The notes beneath the pieces were generated by a model that saw only the letters and a list, made by a program, of their open reading frames with translations, was not told the origin of the DNA and did no database searches. Of a stretch of DNA of 64,000 nt, positions 6,223 to 45,395 are shown piece by piece. The position numbers and the translations under genes are program-made. Numbering within the stretch: position 1 is the first letter of the stretch; each line of letters opens with the position of its first letter. Location of the stretch: assembly GCA_018713605.1 (NCBI GenBank), contig DVOM01000024.1:7509-71508 (forward strand). The letters are read 5' to 3'. The DNA is from Candidatus Scatocola faecigallinarum. Lineage in GTDB: Bacteria; Pseudomonadota; Alphaproteobacteria; RF32; CAG-239.

Positions 6223-6934
6223 ACCAACCCCGGTCAGCCAGAAAAGAATAAAAACCGCCGCTGTCGAAAGATACGGCGCGTTTTTGGTCACGGTTGTCAA
6301 GCAGCCGTAAAATCCGGCGGCGGGTTTTTTCGGAAGGGCACCAGTTTTCGATCAGGGGCATATTGTCGGGGCCGCGTCGGCCGGTGCGTCTTTCGACGAG
6401 CTGGGAAAAACGGCGTTTTTCTTCGTTCAGGCGGTCGTTGTCCGCGCCTTCGGCACGGCTGAATTCGATAATGTCTTCCGGCGGAAAGCCGGAGCAGGCA
6501 CCCGAAATGACCGCGACATAGCTTCTGACCCGAGAGGGCGAAACGCGGGCTTCTTTCAGTTCGGGATTGAGGTCAACCAGTTCCTGATACATTCTGCGGA
6601 CGGCAAAAAGACTTTGCGGCTTGGTTTTCTGCAAGTCGGCGGCCAGAGTGTCGGTGCCCGGATTCATTCCGCGTTCGATGACTTCGTATATACGCATCGG
6701 CTTCATAAGCGCTTCGTATTCAAGCGGGTTCATGTCTTCGGGAAATTTGTAATTGTGATAAATGCCCCGCAGTCCGGAGGCCTTTTCAAAGCGTTTGACC
6801 GGCGAATAGTTCCGGTAGTCCAGACAGGCATAAAGCGCCGCCAGTTCGTTTCGGCGTTCTTCGGGAACGGCAGCATAGATTTCCTTTTGAACGGCCAGGC
6901 TTTGTTCTTTTCTGAAAGGACGGCGGTTTTCCAT
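6212..6934 (-). CDS. Hypothetical protein
   Basis: A 240-aa ORF convergent with 5536..6222, overlapping it by 11 nt. Coding-like composition. No family recognised. Confidence 0.5.
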   Translation of the reverse strand: MENRRPFRKEQSLAVQKEIYAAVPEERRNELAALYACLDYRNYSPVKRFEKASGLRGIYHNYKFPEDMNPLEYEALMKPMRIYEVIERGMNPGTDTLAADLQKTKPQSLFAVRRMYQELVDLNPELKEARVSPSRVRSYVAVISGACSGFPPEDIIEFSRAEGADNDRLNEEKRRFSQLVERRTGRRGPDNMPLIENWCPSEKTRRRILRLLDNRDQKRAVSFDSGGFYSFLADRGWFND

Positions 6935-13159: not shown

Positions 13160-14473
13160 ATGAAATTAAAATATATTTTAGCCCTCGTTATGTGTTTGGT
13201 CGTAACCCCGGCTAAAGCCGAACTGCAAATCGACGTCAACGGCGCAATGCGTGATCCGCTGCCGCTGGCTTTTCCCGAGATGATTCACGAAGGTTTCTGG
13301 GTTGGCCAGTATGCCGGCAAAATCCGCAGCGTGGTTATCGCGGATTTGGAGCGTTCGGGGCTGTTCCGCATTATTCCCGAAAACAGCTATATTCAGGAGC
13401 TTACTTCGGTGGACGAGCAGCCGAACTTTGTTGACTGGAAGGCAATTAATGCGCATGCTCTGGTACAGAGTGCCGTCAAGGAAGTGAATCCGAACACGCT
13501 GCGGGTCGAGTTTCGCCTGTGGGACGTTTATGCCGAGAATCAGCTCAAAGGTCAGTCTTTTACCACAACCAAAGACAACTGGCGCCGGGTAGCCCATGTG
13601 ATTGCCGACGCCATTTATGAGCGCCTGACCGGCGAGAAGGGTTATTTTGACACCCGGATTGTTTATGTTTCCGAAACCGGGCCGGCGACCAAGCGCGTCA
13701 AGCGGCTGGCGATTATGGATCAGGACGGCGAAAACCACAAGTTTTTGACTTCCGGCGCCGCGATGGCTCTCACGCCGCGTTTTTCGCCGAATCTGCAGAA
13801 AGTGACCTATATGTCTTATGCCGGTTCCATGCCGAAAGTTTATATTCTGGATATTGAAACCGGCCGTCAGGAACTGCTGGGATCTTTTCCGGGCATGACC
13901 TTTGCGCCGCGTTTTTCTCCGGACAGCAGCAAGGTTCTGCTGAGCTATGCGAACAACGGCCGCACCAATATCTACGAGATGGATTTAAAACGCCGCACCA
14001 GCAAACAGCTGACTTCAGGTCCGGCCATTGATACGTCGCCGAGCTATTCGCCCGACGGCAGCCAGATTGTGTTTAACTCCGACCGCGGCGGCAATCAGCA
14101 GCTTTATGTTATGAATGCCGACGGTTCCGACGTGCACCGTATCAGTTTCGGTACCGGGCGTTATGCGACGCCGGTGTGGTCGCCGCGCGGCGATTATATC
14201 GCCTTTACGAAAATGGCCAACGGTCAGTTCTATATCGGCGTTATGTATCCGGACGGCAGCGGCGAGCGTTTGCTGGCCAGCGGCTATCTGGTCGAAGGGC
14301 CGACCTGGTCGCCGAACGGCCGCGTGTTGATGTATTTCCGCCAGGATAAGGGGAATTCTCGCAGCAATGCGCCGGTCAAGCTGTATTCAATCGATTTGAC
14401 CGGATATAACGAGCGGATGATTGTGACGCCGGCCGAGGCTTCAGATCCGGCCTGGTCGCCGCTGTTGCCCTGA
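13160..14473 (+). CDS. tolB: Tol-Pal system beta-propeller protein TolB
   Basis: Signal peptide [20 protein letters not shown]. Repeated [27 protein letters not shown] propeller motifs. Confidence 0.9.
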
Positions 14474-39348: not shown

Positions 39349-42045
<2,697 letters not shown>

Positions 42046-42082
42046 AAAACTCTGTATAATGGCTGACTAATACAGAAAGTAC

Positions 42083-42140
42083 GAGAGGCGGAAAATTCAT
42101 GTAGGTTTGTCTACACTAAAATTTTCCGCCCTCTTTTTTC
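42083..42140 (+). terminator. Rho-independent terminator of ppdK
   Basis: GAGGCGGAAAATT...AAATTTTCCGCCCTC followed by TTTTTT. Confidence 0.8.
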
Positions 42141-42475
42141 TTATTATTCCGCTCATTCTCCAGAGTTTTTTTGTGTAAAAAAATAAGTCCTTTTAGGCTA
42201 AGTTACGTACGTTGATGTACGCGCCTGTCGCCTAAAAGGCTTTTTCTTATTATAATCCTCGTATATCGGCTTTTGTTTTTTCTCTTCTCTTTTTATTGTT
42301 TTGCGTATTTTCCTGAGTTTGGAAAAAGCCAGGTTCAGGCTTTTCCGATATGGCTTTAGCTTTGCCGCGTGAAACGATTATTGTATGAGGGCGAAAAGAG
42401 GTTTCGGGGCGCCTTTTTTATTGTTTTTTAAGGTTCGTGGTATATGTATTTGTTCAAATACAGGTGAGGTGTGAA

Positions 42476-43063
42476 ATGAAACCGTATAACCAGGGAAATG
42501 TCGATTTTTTCTGCGGCATTTATGCCGTTATCAACGCATGTCGTTATGCCGGGCGCAAATATCATATTTTCAGCTTTAAGGAGGGCTGCGCGTTTTATCA
42601 GCATATGATGCAGTTTCTGCTGGACAAAGGGCTGTTTGAAGAGGTTCTCTATCATGGCTCTTCTTTTGAAATTATGCAGATGTATTTGGAACAGGCCTGT
42701 AAGTACATGTATGAGCATTATCGGCTGCGGTTGTTCTATAAGCGGCCGTTTACATGGATGGACATGCCGCTTGAACGGGCGACCAGAGTCATCGCCAAAT
42801 ATCTGACGGCGCCGAACACGGCCTCAATAATTCGCTTTGAAAACAAAGACTGCGGCGACCTCTGGTCAATAATCCGGGCGGTGCCGTTTCCGCTGAGCAG
42901 GTTTAAACTGTTTGACAGTTATCTGTATCCGCATTTGGATACAGGCAGCTGTCGTTGGGAAAAAGGCAAAAAATGCAGTTATGTACCGCGCGAGGGGATT
43001 ATTTTTGTTAAAATCGCACCCGAAAAGCCGGATAAGTTGTCAGATGATATTGACAAAAACTGA
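42476..43063 (+). CDS. Hypothetical protein with an N-terminal Q-x6-C-G motif
   Basis: 195 aa from ATG 42476, preceded by a GGTGAGGTG SD. The N-terminus reads MKPYNQGNVDFFCGIYAVINACRY. No family recognised. Confidence 0.55.
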   Translation: MKPYNQGNVDFFCGIYAVINACRYAGRKYHIFSFKEGCAFYQHMMQFLLDKGLFEEVLYHGSSFEIMQMYLEQACKYMYEHYRLRLFYKRPFTWMDMPLERATRVIAKYLTAPNTASIIRFENKDCGDLWSIIRAVPFPLSRFKLFDSYLYPHLDTGSCRWEKGKKCSYVPREGIIFVKIAPEKPDKLSDDIDKN

Positions 43064-43178
43064 TCTTTGATTACATTTACAGCCATAGTTAATATATTTT
43101 TTAGGAGTATTTTGTTTTTTGAAAACATTTTAAGCCTCAGGCTTTACCATATTTTTATAACGTTTTAATTTTTATAGT

Positions 43179-43658
43179 ATGAAGGAAAATCTTCTCTCCA
43201 AAAAAGATGCCAAAGTTCAGCTTGAACGGCTTGGCATAATTGTAAAGGAAGACGACGTGCAAATAGGCCGTTTTTTCCTGATTGAAAATCCCGGCAGCGG
43301 CAAAGTGACGGTTTCGCCTTTTTGCGTCTGTGGGGAAGGCGTAACCGGATTGGGCGTTTGTTTCGTGTATTACTATCACGGAATTCTGACTGAAAACCGG
43401 TATCGGAATTTTGTTTACAGCTGCATGAATTTTCTGATTCCCGACAACAGGAAGAAAACTTATGCCGTTTATGTCCGGGCTTTCAGCGGCAAACACAGCC
43501 GTTTTCCGGAATTTGTGCTGAAAGAAAATTCTGAAATGATCCGTTATGATCTGCCCGGACATTCGTTTATGGCCGATGCCGGCGAATGGGTAGTTGTTGA
43601 CGGCAGAATCGTTGCGGCAAAGGCGGTTTTCAAAACCCCGGTTGCCATGCGCGGATAA
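43179..43658 (+). CDS. Hypothetical protein
   Basis: A 159-aa ORF followed by a clear terminator. No family recognised. Confidence 0.5.
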   Translation: MKENLLSKKDAKVQLERLGIIVKEDDVQIGRFFLIENPGSGKVTVSPFCVCGEGVTGLGVCFVYYYHGILTENRYRNFVYSCMNFLIPDNRKKTYAVYVRAFSGKHSRFPEFVLKENSEMIRYDLPGHSFMADAGEWVVVDGRIVAAKAVFKTPVAMRG

Positions 43659-43664
43659 TTTGTT

Positions 43665-43705
43665 ACGACAGGTTTGTCCTAAGGGGCAGACCTGTCGTTT
43701 GTTTT
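43665..43705 (+). terminator. Rho-independent terminator
   Basis: ACGACAGGT...ACCTGTCGT followed by TTGTTTT. Confidence 0.7.
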
Positions 43706-43730
43706 AAATAAATTTGACGGCTTATGAATA

Positions 43731-43759
43731 TTGACAAAATTTGTCCAGAGTGGTATTTT
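43731..43759 (+). promoter_or_regulatory. Sigma70-like promoter TTGACA-N17-TATTTT
   Basis: Exact -35 consensus at 43731-43736 and -10 at 43754-43759, about 65 nt upstream of the 43824 ATG. Confidence 0.5.
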
Positions 43760-43823
43760 GCGGGTCGATTGATATTAAGAATATGCGAGAGTATTACTAT
43801 AGTTTAATTTAAATTGAAAAATC

Positions 43824-44606
43824 ATGGAAAAGAAAGTTATCATTTCAGACCTGACATTGTCAGCCGCTGAAGGTGTTGCAGAAACAAAGGCCAAACGTTT
43901 TTGGGAAAACCGCATGAAACCTTATGAAAAAGTCAGGTTTCTGGCCGGGCATTTTGACCGTTTTATCGAGTATAATCCCGAATATGTTCAGGAAGGTCCG
44001 ATTCAGATTGTCGTTTCGGCGACCAAAGACGTCGGCGCTTATCAGATCGGGCCGGACGAATATATGGAAGACGTGCTGGTTTCCAGAACGCCTCTGCGCG
44101 GGGCAAAATATTTTGTGGCCCTGCTCGGCGAAGCCAGAAACTGTGCAAGTTCTCACCGACGTTTCCAGCGTTGTCTGTATGCAAATACATTTTATCTGCA
44201 TATTGACGGCAAAGGGATTATTCATCTTGACAGGCTGTTGGACAACAATGACTGGCTTTTTGCCGACCGCGTTGACCGCGCTCTGGAGATTGCGGTTAAG
44301 CGTCTGGGCGGAAAAATGTCTGAAGAGGAAAAGCCGCAGTGGTGCGATTTTTCCTACGGCGAAATCAAAGATTTCGGCCGGGTCGGATATTATGTTGCCA
44401 AAGACGGCCGGAAACGTCTGATTATCTGCATGCTCAATTCCGGAACAATTTTGCCGGAACTTGATGCCAATGATGTCAAGCTTTCCGTTTTGTCTAGAAA
44501 AGGCGAATATTCCGATATGGTAAATCCGCTGCTGCGTTTCAGAATGCTGTCCAATAACATTGTTGCCCGTGTCAGTGCGGACAATGTAAATGCGTTTATG
44601 CGATGA
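43824..44606 (+). CDS. Hypothetical protein, paralog 1 of a tandem pair
   Basis: 260 aa. It aligns with the next gene over roughly 200 aa: YNPEYVQEGPIQIVVSA / YNPGYEQEGPMQIAVSA and LIICMLNSGTIL / VLICMPNSGAIL. Confidence 0.6.
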   Translation: MEKKVIISDLTLSAAEGVAETKAKRFWENRMKPYEKVRFLAGHFDRFIEYNPEYVQEGPIQIVVSATKDVGAYQIGPDEYMEDVLVSRTPLRGAKYFVALLGEARNCASSHRRFQRCLYANTFYLHIDGKGIIHLDRLLDNNDWLFADRVDRALEIAVKRLGGKMSEEEKPQWCDFSYGEIKDFGRVGYYVAKDGRKRLIICMLNSGTILPELDANDVKLSVLSRKGEYSDMVNPLLRFRMLSNNIVARVSADNVNAFMR

Positions 44607-45352
44607 ACAGCTATAAGATTTCCCGAGTGCCGGTTGTCGGCGGCGGGAAGAGAGAACGGCGGACTCCGTTTTCGCAGAGAGTTGACGAACTTGCGGACAA
44701 TTTGAAGGGCTTTTTTGCCTATAATCCCGGTTATGAGCAGGAAGGTCCGATGCAAATTGCCGTGTCGGCAAGGGTAGACGAAGGAACCTACCAGTATGCG
44801 CCGGACAAATATGCCGAAAACATTCTGGTTTCCAAAACGCCGCGCAAAGGTGCCGATTTTTTTGTCGCAGGCCTTGGCGCATCCCGTCTTCCCGGCGGCA
44901 GAAACGTCGGCAAACGCTGCCATTATTCCCGAACCTATTATGTCTGGAAAGATGGCGAAGGCTATTGTTGCAGGCTCTTGCTCAACAACGGCGAACAGCT
45001 TGTTGCCAAAAAGGCGGACGCGGCTCTGGACTGGATAATCGCCCGGGTCGGAGGCACGGCGCTGCAAGACGGTTCCGGCTGGTTTCGTTTCCGGCTGGAA
45101 GACGGTCTGAATTCGCTGGGCAGAATCAGGTGTTACTGGGATAAGGACGAAGAGCTGAGGGTGCTGATTTGCATGCCCAATTCGGGTGCAATTCTTGATT
45201 ATGCGTCTTTTGACGTGGAAATCGGCGAAGTTTTGCAGCCGGGGCATTATTATTCGACCCGTTTTCTGAACTTTATGCTGAACGGGCTGGATAACCTGCA
45301 GAGCAACCAGACGCTTTCGCAGAAAGAACTGAACGATGATTTGACGCCATGA
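44603..45352 (+). CDS. Hypothetical protein, paralog 2 of a tandem pair
   Basis: 249 aa. Its start forms an ATGA overlap with the upstream stop, which indicates translational coupling. Confidence 0.6.
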   Translation: MNSYKISRVPVVGGGKRERRTPFSQRVDELADNLKGFFAYNPGYEQEGPMQIAVSARVDEGTYQYAPDKYAENILVSKTPRKGADFFVAGLGASRLPGGRNVGKRCHYSRTYYVWKDGEGYCCRLLLNNGEQLVAKKADAALDWIIARVGGTALQDGSGWFRFRLEDGLNSLGRIRCYWDKDEELRVLICMPNSGAILDYASFDVEIGEVLQPGHYYSTRFLNFMLNGLDNLQSNQTLSQKELNDDLTP

Positions 45353-45356
45353 CGTT

Positions 45357-45395
45357 AAAGAGCGGGTTTCCCGAAAGGAAACGCCGCTCTTTTTG
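45357..45395 (+). terminator. Rho-independent terminator
   Basis: AGAGCGGGTTTCC-CGAA-AGGAAACGCCGCTCT followed by TTTT. Confidence 0.8.

What the first reader, a model, noticed from the sequence alone, without database searches (positions are those of the whole stretch)
42437..45395. Orphan four-gene block between ppdK and pal, including a translationally coupled paralog pair
**Gene content.** Four co-oriented genes with no family I can recognise occupy the space between two strong terminators (42083-42140 and 45357-45395). Their products are 195, 159, 260 and 249 aa.

**The paralog pair.** The last two genes are clear paralogs. Shared blocks include F(I/F)(E/A)YNP(E/G)Y(V/E)QEGP(I/M)QI(V/A)VSA, (V/I)LVS(R/K)TP and (L/V)(I/L)ICM(L/P)NSG(T/A)IL. 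They are coupled by an ATGA start/stop overlap at 44603-44606. A near-consensus promoter (TTGACA-N17-TATTTT, 43731-43759) precedes them.

**Transcription units.** The second gene has its own terminator (43665-43705), so the block contains at least two transcription units.

**Context.** The block interrupts housekeeping surroundings. The pal-cpoB-tilS-ftsH cluster follows immediately, and a 390-bp gene-free, hairpin-rich spacer precedes the block.

**Interpretation.** The arrangement of a small enzyme-like protein, a small partner, and a duplicated pair is what one sees in accessory modules such as effector/immunity or defence modules. Its function cannot be read from the sequence.
Basis: partly seen in the sequence, partly recalled or inferred. 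Interest (0 to 1): 0.6.

Follow-up and report, generated by a model that had tools for sequence, protein, structure and literature searches.

The report
Orphan gene family fixed beside pal
The four genes are real but are not one accessory module: the paralog pair belongs to an unannotated, fast-evolving protein family that sits just upstream of the outer-membrane gene pal across a whole family of uncultured Alphaproteobacteria, the first gene is a decaying stray from a mobile element, and the function of all four is unknown.

Summary
All sequence observations hold: four co-oriented ORFs (195, 159, 260 and 249 aa), a 39%-identical paralog pair joined by an ATGA overlap, a conserved promoter and three strong terminators. 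No Pfam, NCBIfam, PHROG or PADLOC family matches, and the two fold models (g1, g3) match nothing.

The block is not one module, because its parts have different histories.

- **g3/g4** arose by duplication in the genus ancestor. They belong to an orphan superfamily (branches A and B) found in about 11 genera of one alphaproteobacterial family. It has 1-3 tandem copies, nearly always immediately 5' of pal-cpoB-tilS-ftsH, whatever lies further upstream (ppdK, ftsI, ybgC). It is inherited vertically, under purifying selection but fast-evolving, and separated from pal by a terminator.
- **g2** is a genus-restricted, single-gene orphan.
- **g1** is a solitary copy of a Gln-Cys-His-Asp (papain-like motif) family. 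That family normally sits in a DUF3768-X-resolvase mobile-element module. This copy carries Leu in place of the catalytic His.

There is no evidence for an effector/immunity or defence role. My best guess is that g3 and g4 form a cytoplasmic, non-enzymatic heteromer. A weak neighbourhood hint points to envelope or peptidoglycan processes.

The parts
42083..42133 (+). ppdK intrinsic terminator hairpin followed by a T-run
   Evidence: RNA fold -24.1 kcal/mol, z -5.5
42046..42340 (+). Conserved non-coding spacer after ppdK, holding a second hairpin (about 42188-42242)
   Evidence: 93-94% identical to G001 and G005, although neighbouring genes are saturated at synonymous sites. A unit of about 120 nt is tandemly duplicated in sister species. 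The second hairpin folds at -22.5 kcal/mol, z -4.1. No Rfam match and unique in the genome.
42476..43063 (+). g1, 195 aa: solitary member of a Gln-Cys-His-Asp (papain-like motif) family; the catalytic His position is Leu in this copy
   Evidence: Alignment A6: Q6, G7, C13, G61, D147 and S148 are invariant; His is present in 23 of 24 sequences, and only the window copy has Leu. The cluster representative 98% identical to the window copy (P0021) has His; P0027 and P0029 are frameshifted and P0022 carries a deletion. Relatives sit in DUF3768-X-resolvase modules.
43050..43077 (+). Promoter-like site for g2 (TTGACA-16-TACATT), overlapping the 3' end of g1
   Evidence: Scan, 10 of 12 matches. The same motif precedes g2 in G002, which lacks g1.
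43179..43658 (+). g2, 159 aa: genus-restricted orphan gene in its own transcription unit
   Evidence: Present in all 7 species of the genus, including G006, which lacks g3/g4. No family or PDB match. Omega 0.27.
43665..43698 (+). g2 intrinsic terminator
   Evidence: 15-bp stem, -26.6 kcal/mol, z -7.4. Compensatory substitutions keep the stem in six species.
43731..43759 (+). Sigma-70-type promoter of the g3-g4 unit (TTGACA-17-TATTTT with TG)
   Evidence: Scan. The boxes are conserved in six species while the flanking spacer diverges.
43824..44606 (+). g3, 260 aa: member of the orphan 'pal-upstream' superfamily (branch A)
   Evidence: AlphaFold model pTM 0.73 with no PDB or BFVD fold match.
44603..44606 (+). 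ATGA overlap of the g3 stop and the g4 start (translational coupling)
   Evidence: Read from the sequence. In sister species the two genes overlap or abut within a few bases.
44603..45352 (+). g4, 249 aa: paralog of g3 from a duplication in the genus ancestor
   Evidence: 39% identity, E 2e-40. The g3 and g4 clades are sisters, and together they are sister to the single-copy clade of genus g19.
45357..45393 (+). Intrinsic terminator separating g4 from pal
   Evidence: -22.8 kcal/mol, z -5.1. An equivalent hairpin follows the last family gene before pal in all 17 loci checked.

Best explanation
The block is a composite of three unrelated lineage-specific elements. They lie in the slot immediately 5' of pal-cpoB-tilS-ftsH in a family of small-genome (1.3-1.9 Mb), uncultured Alphaproteobacteria.

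(1) g3-g4 is a two-gene unit with its own conserved sigma-70-type promoter and its own terminator. It encodes two paralogs of an unannotated superfamily, which I call the 'pal-upstream' family, branches A and B. The superfamily is inherited vertically at this position, varies from 0 to 3 tandem copies, and evolves fast under purifying selection. The proteins are soluble, with no signal peptide or membrane segment. They have no conserved catalytic constellation, and the predicted alpha+beta fold has no detectable relative. From the translational coupling and the long branches after duplication I infer, but have not shown, that the two products form a cytoplasmic heteromer with a binding or scaffolding role rather than an enzymatic one. 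The only functional hint is the neighbourhood (pal, cpoB, ftsI, tolB, an LD-carboxypeptidase, a lysozyme-domain gene), which points weakly to envelope or peptidoglycan processes.

(2) g2 is a genus-specific single-gene orphan.

(3) g1 is a solitary, diverged copy of a family with an invariant Gln-Cys...His...Asp signature. That family normally lies between a DUF3768 gene and a serine recombinase in mobile elements. Here it has lost both partners. In this assembly it also carries Leu at the His position, and population variants carry frameshifts, so it is probably decaying.

Odds: about 0.7 that the composite, vertically inherited account is right; about 0.4 that g3 and g4 form a heteromer; about 0.2 that the function is linked to the envelope.
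For: Distribution of g3/g4:
- Both copies are present, in the order ppdK-[g1]-g2-g3-g4-pal, in 5 of 6 sister species.
- Profile A5 finds the family in 42 of 201 genomes of the order, in 5 of 22 genera, all within one family, with 1-3 tandem copies.
- In 14 of the 16 loci fetched the hit lies in the interval just upstream of pal-cpoB-tilS-ftsH, and in 11 of them directly 5' of pal. The upstream neighbour is ppdK, or the ybgC-type thioesterase after ruvCAB.
- Branch B is a remote relative of branch A: hhalign probability 92%, E 5e-7, against 0.7% for a reversed-sequence control. It is in 27 of 201 genomes and 8 of 22 genera. In 22 of 27 loci pal is found within the 1.5-kb flank on the side opposite ftsI or ppdK, co-oriented.
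- Distant metagenomic members are also directly upstream of an OmpA/Pal gene.
- The family is rare overall: 39 hits at E<=1e-3 among 1.84 billion representative proteins.

Vertical descent: the tree's clades follow the genera, and the g3/g4 duplication is placed in the genus ancestor. G+C matches the genome.

Selection: pN is far below pS, and omega is 0.16-0.19.

Separate transcription: a terminator precedes pal in 17 of 17 loci, and the promoter and terminator are conserved.

No known relatives: sequence; fold.

g1.

The Tol system is intact elsewhere in this genome: tolB at window 13169-14467, and ybgC-tolQRA on contig C15.
Against: - The function is not established by any test. The heteromer is inferred only from the gene overlap, and tandem copies in other genera are 70-230 bp apart and so not coupled.
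- The envelope hint rests on few independent events: pal adjacency is ancestral, ldcA adjacency is one event in three g36 species, and lysozyme adjacency is seen in one genome. A conserved terminator argues against co-transcription with pal.
- The AlphaFold models rest on shallow alignments (13 and 8 sequences; pLDDT 68 and 67), so a known fold could have been missed.
- Some copies lie elsewhere: G161 locus L078, and G211 C9 after tolB.
- The His-to-Leu change in g1 could be a MAG consensus error.
- About half of the genera in the family have neither branch, so the family is dispensable.
Confidence: 0.7

Rival explanations
1. g3/g4 and the family's 1-3 copy arrays are orphan immunity proteins against interbacterial toxins that act in the cytoplasm. 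On this reading they are kept as a polyimmunity locus, and g1 (a hydrolase-like protein) with g2 is a degenerate toxin/immunity pair.
For: Tandem divergent paralogs, copy number varying from 0 to 3, and fast evolution with few conserved polar residues. There is no signal peptide, which fits immunity to cytoplasmic toxins. g1 has a Cys-His-Asp hydrolase signature.
Against: - No toxin, Rhs, CDI, VgrG or PAAR gene is adjacent in any locus examined.
- No Pfam immunity family matches any member.
- The genome has no TssC.
- The tree follows the genera instead of showing exchange.
- A 99%-identical g3 cluster is seen on 380 contigs.
- g1's usual partners are DUF3768 and a resolvase, not g2.
- g1 and g2 have different distributions (3 of 7 against 7 of 7 species).
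Confidence: 0.12
2. The superfamily is a clade-specific cytoplasmic partner or regulator of envelope and peptidoglycan processes (Pal-CpoB, FtsI, LdcA). It would be retained next to pal because of a functional tie that arose when the tol-pal cluster was broken up in this lineage.
For: - Adjacency to pal persists through at least four different upstream contexts: ppdK, ftsI, ybgC, and a lysozyme-domain gene.
- In genus g12 the triplet lies where tolQRAB lies in outgroups.
- Dispersed second copies in g36 lie directly 5' of an LD-carboxypeptidase gene.
- One copy follows tolB in G211.
Against: - A terminator precedes pal in 17 of 17 loci.
- The proteins have no export signal, whereas Pal and CpoB are periplasmic.
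- About half of the family's genera lack the genes while keeping pal-cpoB.
- TolQRA and TolB are intact in this genome, so nothing is obviously being replaced.
- There are few independent association events.
Confidence: 0.18
3. The block is anti-phage defence cargo in a chromosomal hotspot between ppdK and pal.
For: The same interval carries an AIPR (abortive-infection) gene in another genus (locus L086) and an unannotated insert of 686 aa plus 239 aa in three g36 species. g1 relatives travel with a resolvase near HsdM and an integrase.
Against: No PADLOC hit for any of the four proteins. g3/g4 descend vertically with host-like composition. No nuclease, ATPase or sensor domains are present. 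No phage or plasmid matches.
Confidence: 0.07

Closest known systems
Canonical ybgC-tolQ-tolR-tolA-tolB-pal-cpoB cluster of Proteobacteria
   Same: pal-cpoB(-tilS-ftsH) lies downstream. In genus g12 the family's triplet lies between the ybgC-type thioesterase and pal, which is where tolQRAB lies in outgroups of the same order and class.
   Different: g3/g4 have no membrane segment, signal peptide, ExbB/ExbD domain or beta-propeller. Tol genes are intact elsewhere in this genome. The family is transcriptionally separated from pal.
Immunity-protein arrays of polymorphic toxin systems (Imm/SUKH/CdiI/Tsi-type loci)
   Same: Tandem, divergent, fast-evolving small paralogs with variable copy number and no enzymatic motif.
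   Different: No adjacent toxin, no match to any Imm family, a fixed chromosomal position with vertical descent, and proteins larger (about 250 aa) than most immunity proteins.
Papain-like (clan CA, for example C39-like) cysteine peptidases - for g1 only
   Same: A Gln seven positions before an invariant Cys that opens a predicted helix, a later invariant His (His-Trp or His-Tyr) and an Asp-Ser, in that order.
   Different: No HMM or PDB sequence match. The AlphaFold model finds no papain-like structure. The window copy has Leu at the His position. The family's context is DUF3768 plus a serine recombinase, not transporters or bacteriocin loci.
Earlier notes of this scan on other genomes (e1-1265998, e1-1456816): orphan tandem paralogs upstream of pal in uncultured Alphaproteobacteria
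   Same: The same slot 5' of pal, with tandem diverged paralogs that have no annotation. I saw the triplet between ybgC and pal myself in G158, and helical ORFs of 186-201 aa in G071 and G211.
   Different: In this genus there is a pair, not a triplet, made by a separate and more recent duplication. This genome keeps TolQRA and TolB, so the idea that the clade has lost the Tol motor does not apply here.

Membership tests
Papain-like cysteine peptidase (g1) | Oxyanion-hole Gln followed by a nucleophile Cys at the N-terminus of a helix | tested here: met
   Q6 and C13 are invariant in 24 divergent sequences. The model's first helix starts at residue 7.
Papain-like cysteine peptidase (g1) | Catalytic His | tested here: not met
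   The window copy reads CGDLWS. The other 23 of 24 sequences have His, including P0021, the cluster representative 98% identical to the window copy.
Papain-like cysteine peptidase (g1) | Third catalytic residue (Asp/Asn) after the His | tested here: met
   D147-S148 are invariant.
Papain-like cysteine peptidase (g1) | Papain-like fold, or a profile match to a peptidase family | tested here: inconclusive
   No Pfam, NCBIfam or PDB sequence hit. Foldseek on a model with pLDDT 67 found nothing (best E 0.24, TM <= 0.26).
DUF3768-X-serine recombinase mobile module (g1) | Homolog of the middle gene X | tested here: met
   18-25% identity to module copies, recovered by profile A3; same invariant residues.
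DUF3768-X-serine recombinase mobile module (g1) | DUF3768 gene immediately upstream and a resolvase downstream | tested here: not met
   Both are present in 13 of 20 further loci and one of the two in 3 more, and both in the two loci checked by Pfam. They are absent from the window, where g1 is flanked by a spacer and g2.
Polymorphic-toxin immunity array (g3/g4) | Adjacent toxin gene or toxin-cassette remnants | tested here: not met
   None in the window or in about 45 related loci.
Polymorphic-toxin immunity array (g3/g4) | Match to a described immunity family | tested here: not met
   Pfam found none for g3, g4 or 10 distant members.
Polymorphic-toxin immunity array (g3/g4) | Tandem divergent paralogs with variable copy number | tested here: met
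   0-3 copies.
Anti-phage defence system (PADLOC catalogue) | HMM match to a known or candidate defence protein | tested here: not met
   No hits at E<=1 for any of the four proteins.
Tol-Pal system component | Envelope localisation (signal peptide, lipobox or membrane helix) | tested here: not met
   Highest 19-residue hydropathy is 0.85 for g3 and 1.07 for g4, and there is no N-terminal hydrophobic segment.
Tol-Pal system component | Co-transcription or co-occurrence with tol-pal across Proteobacteria | tested here: not met
   A terminator precedes pal in 17 of 17 loci. The family is absent from outgroups with canonical clusters.
Tol-Pal system component | Conserved adjacency to pal | tested here: met
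Type II toxin-antitoxin pair (g3-g4 overlap) | Two small, non-homologous, co-translated partners matching TA families | tested here: not met
   The partners are paralogs of about 250 aa, and no TA family hit was found.

The most novel reading that the evidence does not exclude
The A/B 'pal-upstream' superfamily is a new, clade-specific cytoplasmic module that acts as homo- or hetero-oligomers of a new fold. It would be functionally tied to envelope and peptidoglycan homeostasis (Pal-CpoB, FtsI, LdcA), in a lineage where the tol-pal and dcw clusters have been broken up and rejoined. This would explain why the family has stayed next to pal through several rearrangements.
Probability: 0.15. Interest if true: 0.7.

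Novelty: categorically new. Interest (0 to 1): 0.42.

Why it matters
If the family has a defined role, it would be a previously unseen protein fold and module specific to an abundant but uncultured group of small-genome Alphaproteobacteria. It is positioned at a landmark envelope locus whose canonical organisation has been remodelled in this clade.

'Categorically new' is meant here only in the weak sense. No sequence or fold relative could be found for g3/g4 or g2, and no function or mechanism has been demonstrated.

In practical terms:
- The result removes a candidate from the defence and effector lists.
- It defines two profile families (A and B), and a third (the g1 family with its DUF3768-X-resolvase module), that annotation pipelines currently leave blank.
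- It gives a clear example of a 'module' that dissolves into parts with separate histories once comparative data are used.

Tried and rejected
- **Family libraries.** Pfam, NCBIfam, PHROGs and PADLOC on all four proteins, and Pfam on distant relatives, gave nothing above noise.
- **PDB sequence profiles.** Searches with A3, A4, A5 and A6 gave nothing.
- **Fold searches.** AlphaFold2 plus Foldseek gave no match at E<=0.001 and low TM scores throughout: g3 against PDB and BFVD, g1 against PDB.
- **Phages and plasmids.** tblastn of g3 against phages and g1 against plasmids gave no match.
- **Internal relatedness.** hhalign of g1 and g2 against the g3/g4 superfamily, and against each other, showed they are unrelated.
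- **Replacement of Tol.** Rejected: tolB and ybgC-tolQRA are present elsewhere in this genome.
- **Recent foreign insertion.** Rejected on composition and synteny.
- **T6SS effector/immunity.** No TssC in the genome. One VirB4-like gene exists on contig C10 and was not followed up.
- **Tools and literature.** Literature searches for DUF3768 and PF12599 returned nothing.


Full report
**1. What is there**

The window is C12:7509-71508 of a 1.68-Mb, 44-contig genome. The nearest public records are titled 'uncultured Alphaproteobacteria bacterium' MAGs. Between ppdK (TIGR01828, 1344 bits) and pal-ybgF/cpoB-tilS-ftsH (all NCBIfam equivalogs) lie four co-oriented ORFs:

| Gene | Coordinates | Length |
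|---|---|---|
| g1 | 42476-43063 | 195 aa |
| g2 | 43179-43658 | 159 aa |
| g3 | 43824-44606 | 260 aa |
| g4 | 44603-45352 | 249 aa |

- g3 and g4 are paralogs: 39% identity over 203 residues, E 2e-40. They share an ATGA stop/start overlap at 44603-44606.
- The TTGACA-17-TATTTT promoter at 43731-43759 carries a TG extension. In an alignment of the g2-g3 spacer from six species, its -35 and -10 boxes are conserved. The g2 terminator stem is kept through compensatory changes while the rest of the spacer diverges.
- A second promoter-like site, TTGACA-16-TACATT at 43050-43077, precedes g2. It is also present in G002, a species that lacks g1.
- The likely units are therefore g1, g2 and g3-g4.
- All four frames are coding. 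pN is far below pS against each sister species. Against the nearest species (G002) omega is 0.27 for g2, 0.16 for g3 and 0.19 for g4, compared with 0.135 for tilS and 0.026 for pal.
- G+C is 0.46-0.53 against a genome mean of 0.49, and none of the four proteins has a signal peptide or membrane segment.

**2. No known family**

- Pfam, NCBIfam, PHROGs and PADLOC give nothing significant for any of the four proteins.
- Profiles of each family against all PDB sequences give nothing.
- An AlphaFold2 model of g3 (13-sequence alignment, pLDDT 68, pTM 0.73) has no Foldseek match in PDB (best E 0.04, TM below 0.2) or BFVD.
- A g1 model (pLDDT 67, pTM 0.65) also has none.
- g3 has no tblastn match in phage records, and g1 has none in plasmids.

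**3. The four genes have different histories**

Within the genus the order ppdK-[g1]-g2-g3-g4-pal is syntenic.

| Gene(s) | Species of the genus (of 7) | Beyond the genus |
|---|---|---|
| g1 | 3 | patchy, at varied loci (section 5) |
| g2 | 7, including G006, which lacks g3/g4 | not detected at significance |
| g3/g4 | 6, always as a pair | many genera (section 4) |

Sources. Identity to the window copy is 95-98% for ppdK, pal and ftsH, 75-77% for g1, 38-73% for g2, 58-73% for g3 and 64-66% for g4. A single-sequence search finds g3/g4 in no other genus of 35 sampled, apart from one weak hit.

**4. The g3/g4 family is an old resident of the slot 5' of pal**

*Extent of branch A.*
- A profile of the genus-level alignment, scored against 1.84 billion representative proteins, found only 39 hits at E<=1e-3.
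- The distant hits that could be located lie directly upstream of an OmpA/Pal gene and cpoB in metagenome contigs, again with a tandem partner.
- A broader profile (A5) scored against 201 genomes of the order found the family in 42 genomes and 5 of 22 genera, all in one family, with 1-3 tandem copies.
- In 14 of the 16 loci I fetched, the hit lies in the interval just upstream of pal-cpoB-tilS-ftsH; in 11 it is directly 5' of pal. In three g36 species an opposite-strand insert separates the family gene from pal.
- The upstream neighbour is usually ppdK. In genus g12 it is yebC-ruvC-ruvA-ruvB-thioesterase(ybgC), so the triplet lies where tolQ-tolR-tolA-tolB lie in outgroups.

*Branch B.*
- In other genera a second set of ORFs of 190-250 aa lies directly upstream of pal, after ftsI or ppdK.
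- With four sequences it aligns to branch A at hhalign probability 92%, E 5e-7. A reversed-sequence control gives 0.7%.
- Branch B is in 27 of 201 genomes and 8 of 22 genera. In 22 of 27 loci pal is found within the 1.5-kb flank, on the side opposite ftsI or ppdK and co-oriented with it.
- Together the two branches cover about 11 genera.

*Descent and duplication.*
- A maximum-likelihood tree of 62 branch-A members groups sequences by genus.
- The g3 and g4 clades are sisters (support 88/64). Together they are sister to the single-copy clade of genus g19 (100/99).
- Genus g12 has three old paralog clades.
- The pair in the window is therefore a duplication in the genus ancestor of a vertically inherited family, followed by long branches (0.66-0.77 changes per site).

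*Conserved residues.* Few polar residues are conserved across the superfamily, chiefly Q61 and R116; the other nearly invariant positions are Gly and Leu. This argues against an enzyme.

**5. g1 is a stray from a mobile-element module**

- Profile A3 finds the g1 family in 38 of 201 genomes and 12 of 22 genera, at varied loci.
- In 13 of 20 further loci the gene lies between a DUF3768 gene (PF12599, E 1e-33) and a serine recombinase (Resolvase plus HTH_7), on the same strand and often overlapping; 3 more loci keep one of the two partners. In the first loci examined the module lies beside HsdM, a tyrosine integrase or a UvrD-type helicase.
- Across 24 divergent members, Q6, G7, C13, G61, D147 and S148 are invariant.
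- A His in the 'DHW' motif is present in 23 of 24; the single exception is the window copy (CGDLWS).
- The cluster representative 98% identical to the window copy (P0021) has His. Other population variants are frameshifted (P0027, P0029) or carry a deletion (P0022).
- The order Gln-Cys...His...Asp, with the Cys opening a predicted helix, is the papain-like arrangement. Neither a profile nor a fold search confirms membership.
- In the window g1 has neither DUF3768 nor a resolvase beside it.
- I read it as a solitary, probably decaying, accessory gene.

**6. Function**

*What is shown.* Gene structure, paralogy, selection, distribution, position, and separate transcription signals.

*What is inferred.* g3 and g4 probably form a heteromer. 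This rests on the start/stop overlap, which is kept as an overlap or a gap of a few bases in sister species, and on divergence after duplication. The role is more likely binding or scaffolding than catalysis.

*The one functional hint is the neighbourhood:*
- pal and cpoB;
- ftsI;
- tolB (G211);
- a lysozyme-domain gene (G007);
- for dispersed second copies in three g36 species, an LD-carboxypeptidase gene directly downstream.

*Against a direct tie to pal:*
- A terminator-like hairpin follows the last family gene in all 17 loci checked.
- The proteins have no export signal.
- About half of the genera lack the family.
- The Tol system is intact in this genome: tolB at window 13169-14467, ybgC-tolQRA on contig C15.

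*Other readings.*
- The immunity-array reading fits the tandem, variable, fast-evolving pattern. It lacks any toxin neighbour, any Imm family match and any sign of exchange, and the genome has no T6SS sheath gene.
- The defence reading has only hotspot-type support: an AIPR gene in the same interval in one genus. There is no PADLOC hit.

**7. Verdict**

- The 'one accessory effector/immunity or defence module' reading is only partly supported, for g1 alone.
- The main result is that the paralog pair belongs to an unannotated, clade-restricted superfamily that is fixed next to pal and has no detectable sequence or fold relatives.
- Two earlier notes of this scan describe the same slot in other genomes. 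I reproduced the ybgC-triplet-pal arrangement independently. The suggestion that the Tol motor has been lost does not hold for this genome.

Noticed in passing
window 42046-42340: The non-coding spacer after the ppdK terminator is 93-94% identical to that of G001 and G005, although neighbouring genes are saturated at synonymous sites. A unit of about 120 nt holding the second hairpin (about 42188-42242) is tandemly duplicated in four sister species. There is no Rfam match and the sequence is unique in the genome. It is a candidate small RNA or regulatory element.
   Followed up: partly
window 41983-42045 (C-terminus of ppdK): The short Cys-rich tail of PPDK is also present in sister species...KKEEGSCCKKAC in G002 and ...KKEESGNCCCKKSA in G001, read from the DNA printed. 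It is therefore conserved and not a read-on artefact.
   Followed up: partly
window 13169-14467 and contig C15 of the genome: The tol-pal cluster is fragmented in this lineage: tolB lies 30 kb upstream of pal, ybgC-tolQ-tolR-tolA are on another contig, and pal-cpoB follows the orphan block. Outgroups of the order and class keep ybgC-tolQRAB-pal.
   Followed up: partly
L082, L085 and L124-L141 (genera g8, g4): In several genera the division/cell-wall cluster is cut after ftsI (mraZ-rsmH-ftsL-ftsI) and joined to [branch-B gene]-pal-cpoB, instead of continuing with the mur genes.
   Followed up: no
L080 7794-9315; L079 7187-8711; L104-L123: A conserved three-gene module, DUF3768 - Cys/His/Asp protein - serine recombinase, recurs in many genomes of the family. 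In the loci first examined it lies near HsdM, a tyrosine integrase or a UvrD-type helicase. It appears to be an undescribed mobile-element module.
   Followed up: partly
L086 5040-6278 (G016): An AIPR (abortive-infection) gene lies just downstream of ppdK in genus g11, in the position the orphan block occupies here, which suggests the slot can accept defence cargo.
   Followed up: no
L074 6311-9204; L075 5656-8517; L077 1769-4665: Three g36 species carry an opposite-strand insert of 674-686 aa plus 238-239 aa between the family gene and pal. The two proteins tested (locus L074) have no Pfam match.
   Followed up: no
L010 about 6760-6850 (g3 ortholog of G004) and P0008-P0018: The N-terminus of g3 orthologs carries a variable acidic repeat (GAAAATGCA x4, giving ENAENAENA...) that is absent from the window copy.
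   Followed up: no
window 44603-45352 against G002 (L009): g4 is as far from its G002 ortholog (dN 0.26) as from the more distant species. g3, tilS and cpoB are about half as far from G002 as from the others. This hints at allelic replacement or accelerated change in g4.
   Followed up: no
L070 2474-4406; L076 1497-2676 (genus g12): Tandem ORFs of 186-201 aa, probably helical and with no Pfam match for the two tested, lie upstream of the family arrays. They look like a second fast-evolving family in the same slot, but only the two L076 copies share an obvious N-terminal motif and BLAST did not link the L070 copies.
   Followed up: no
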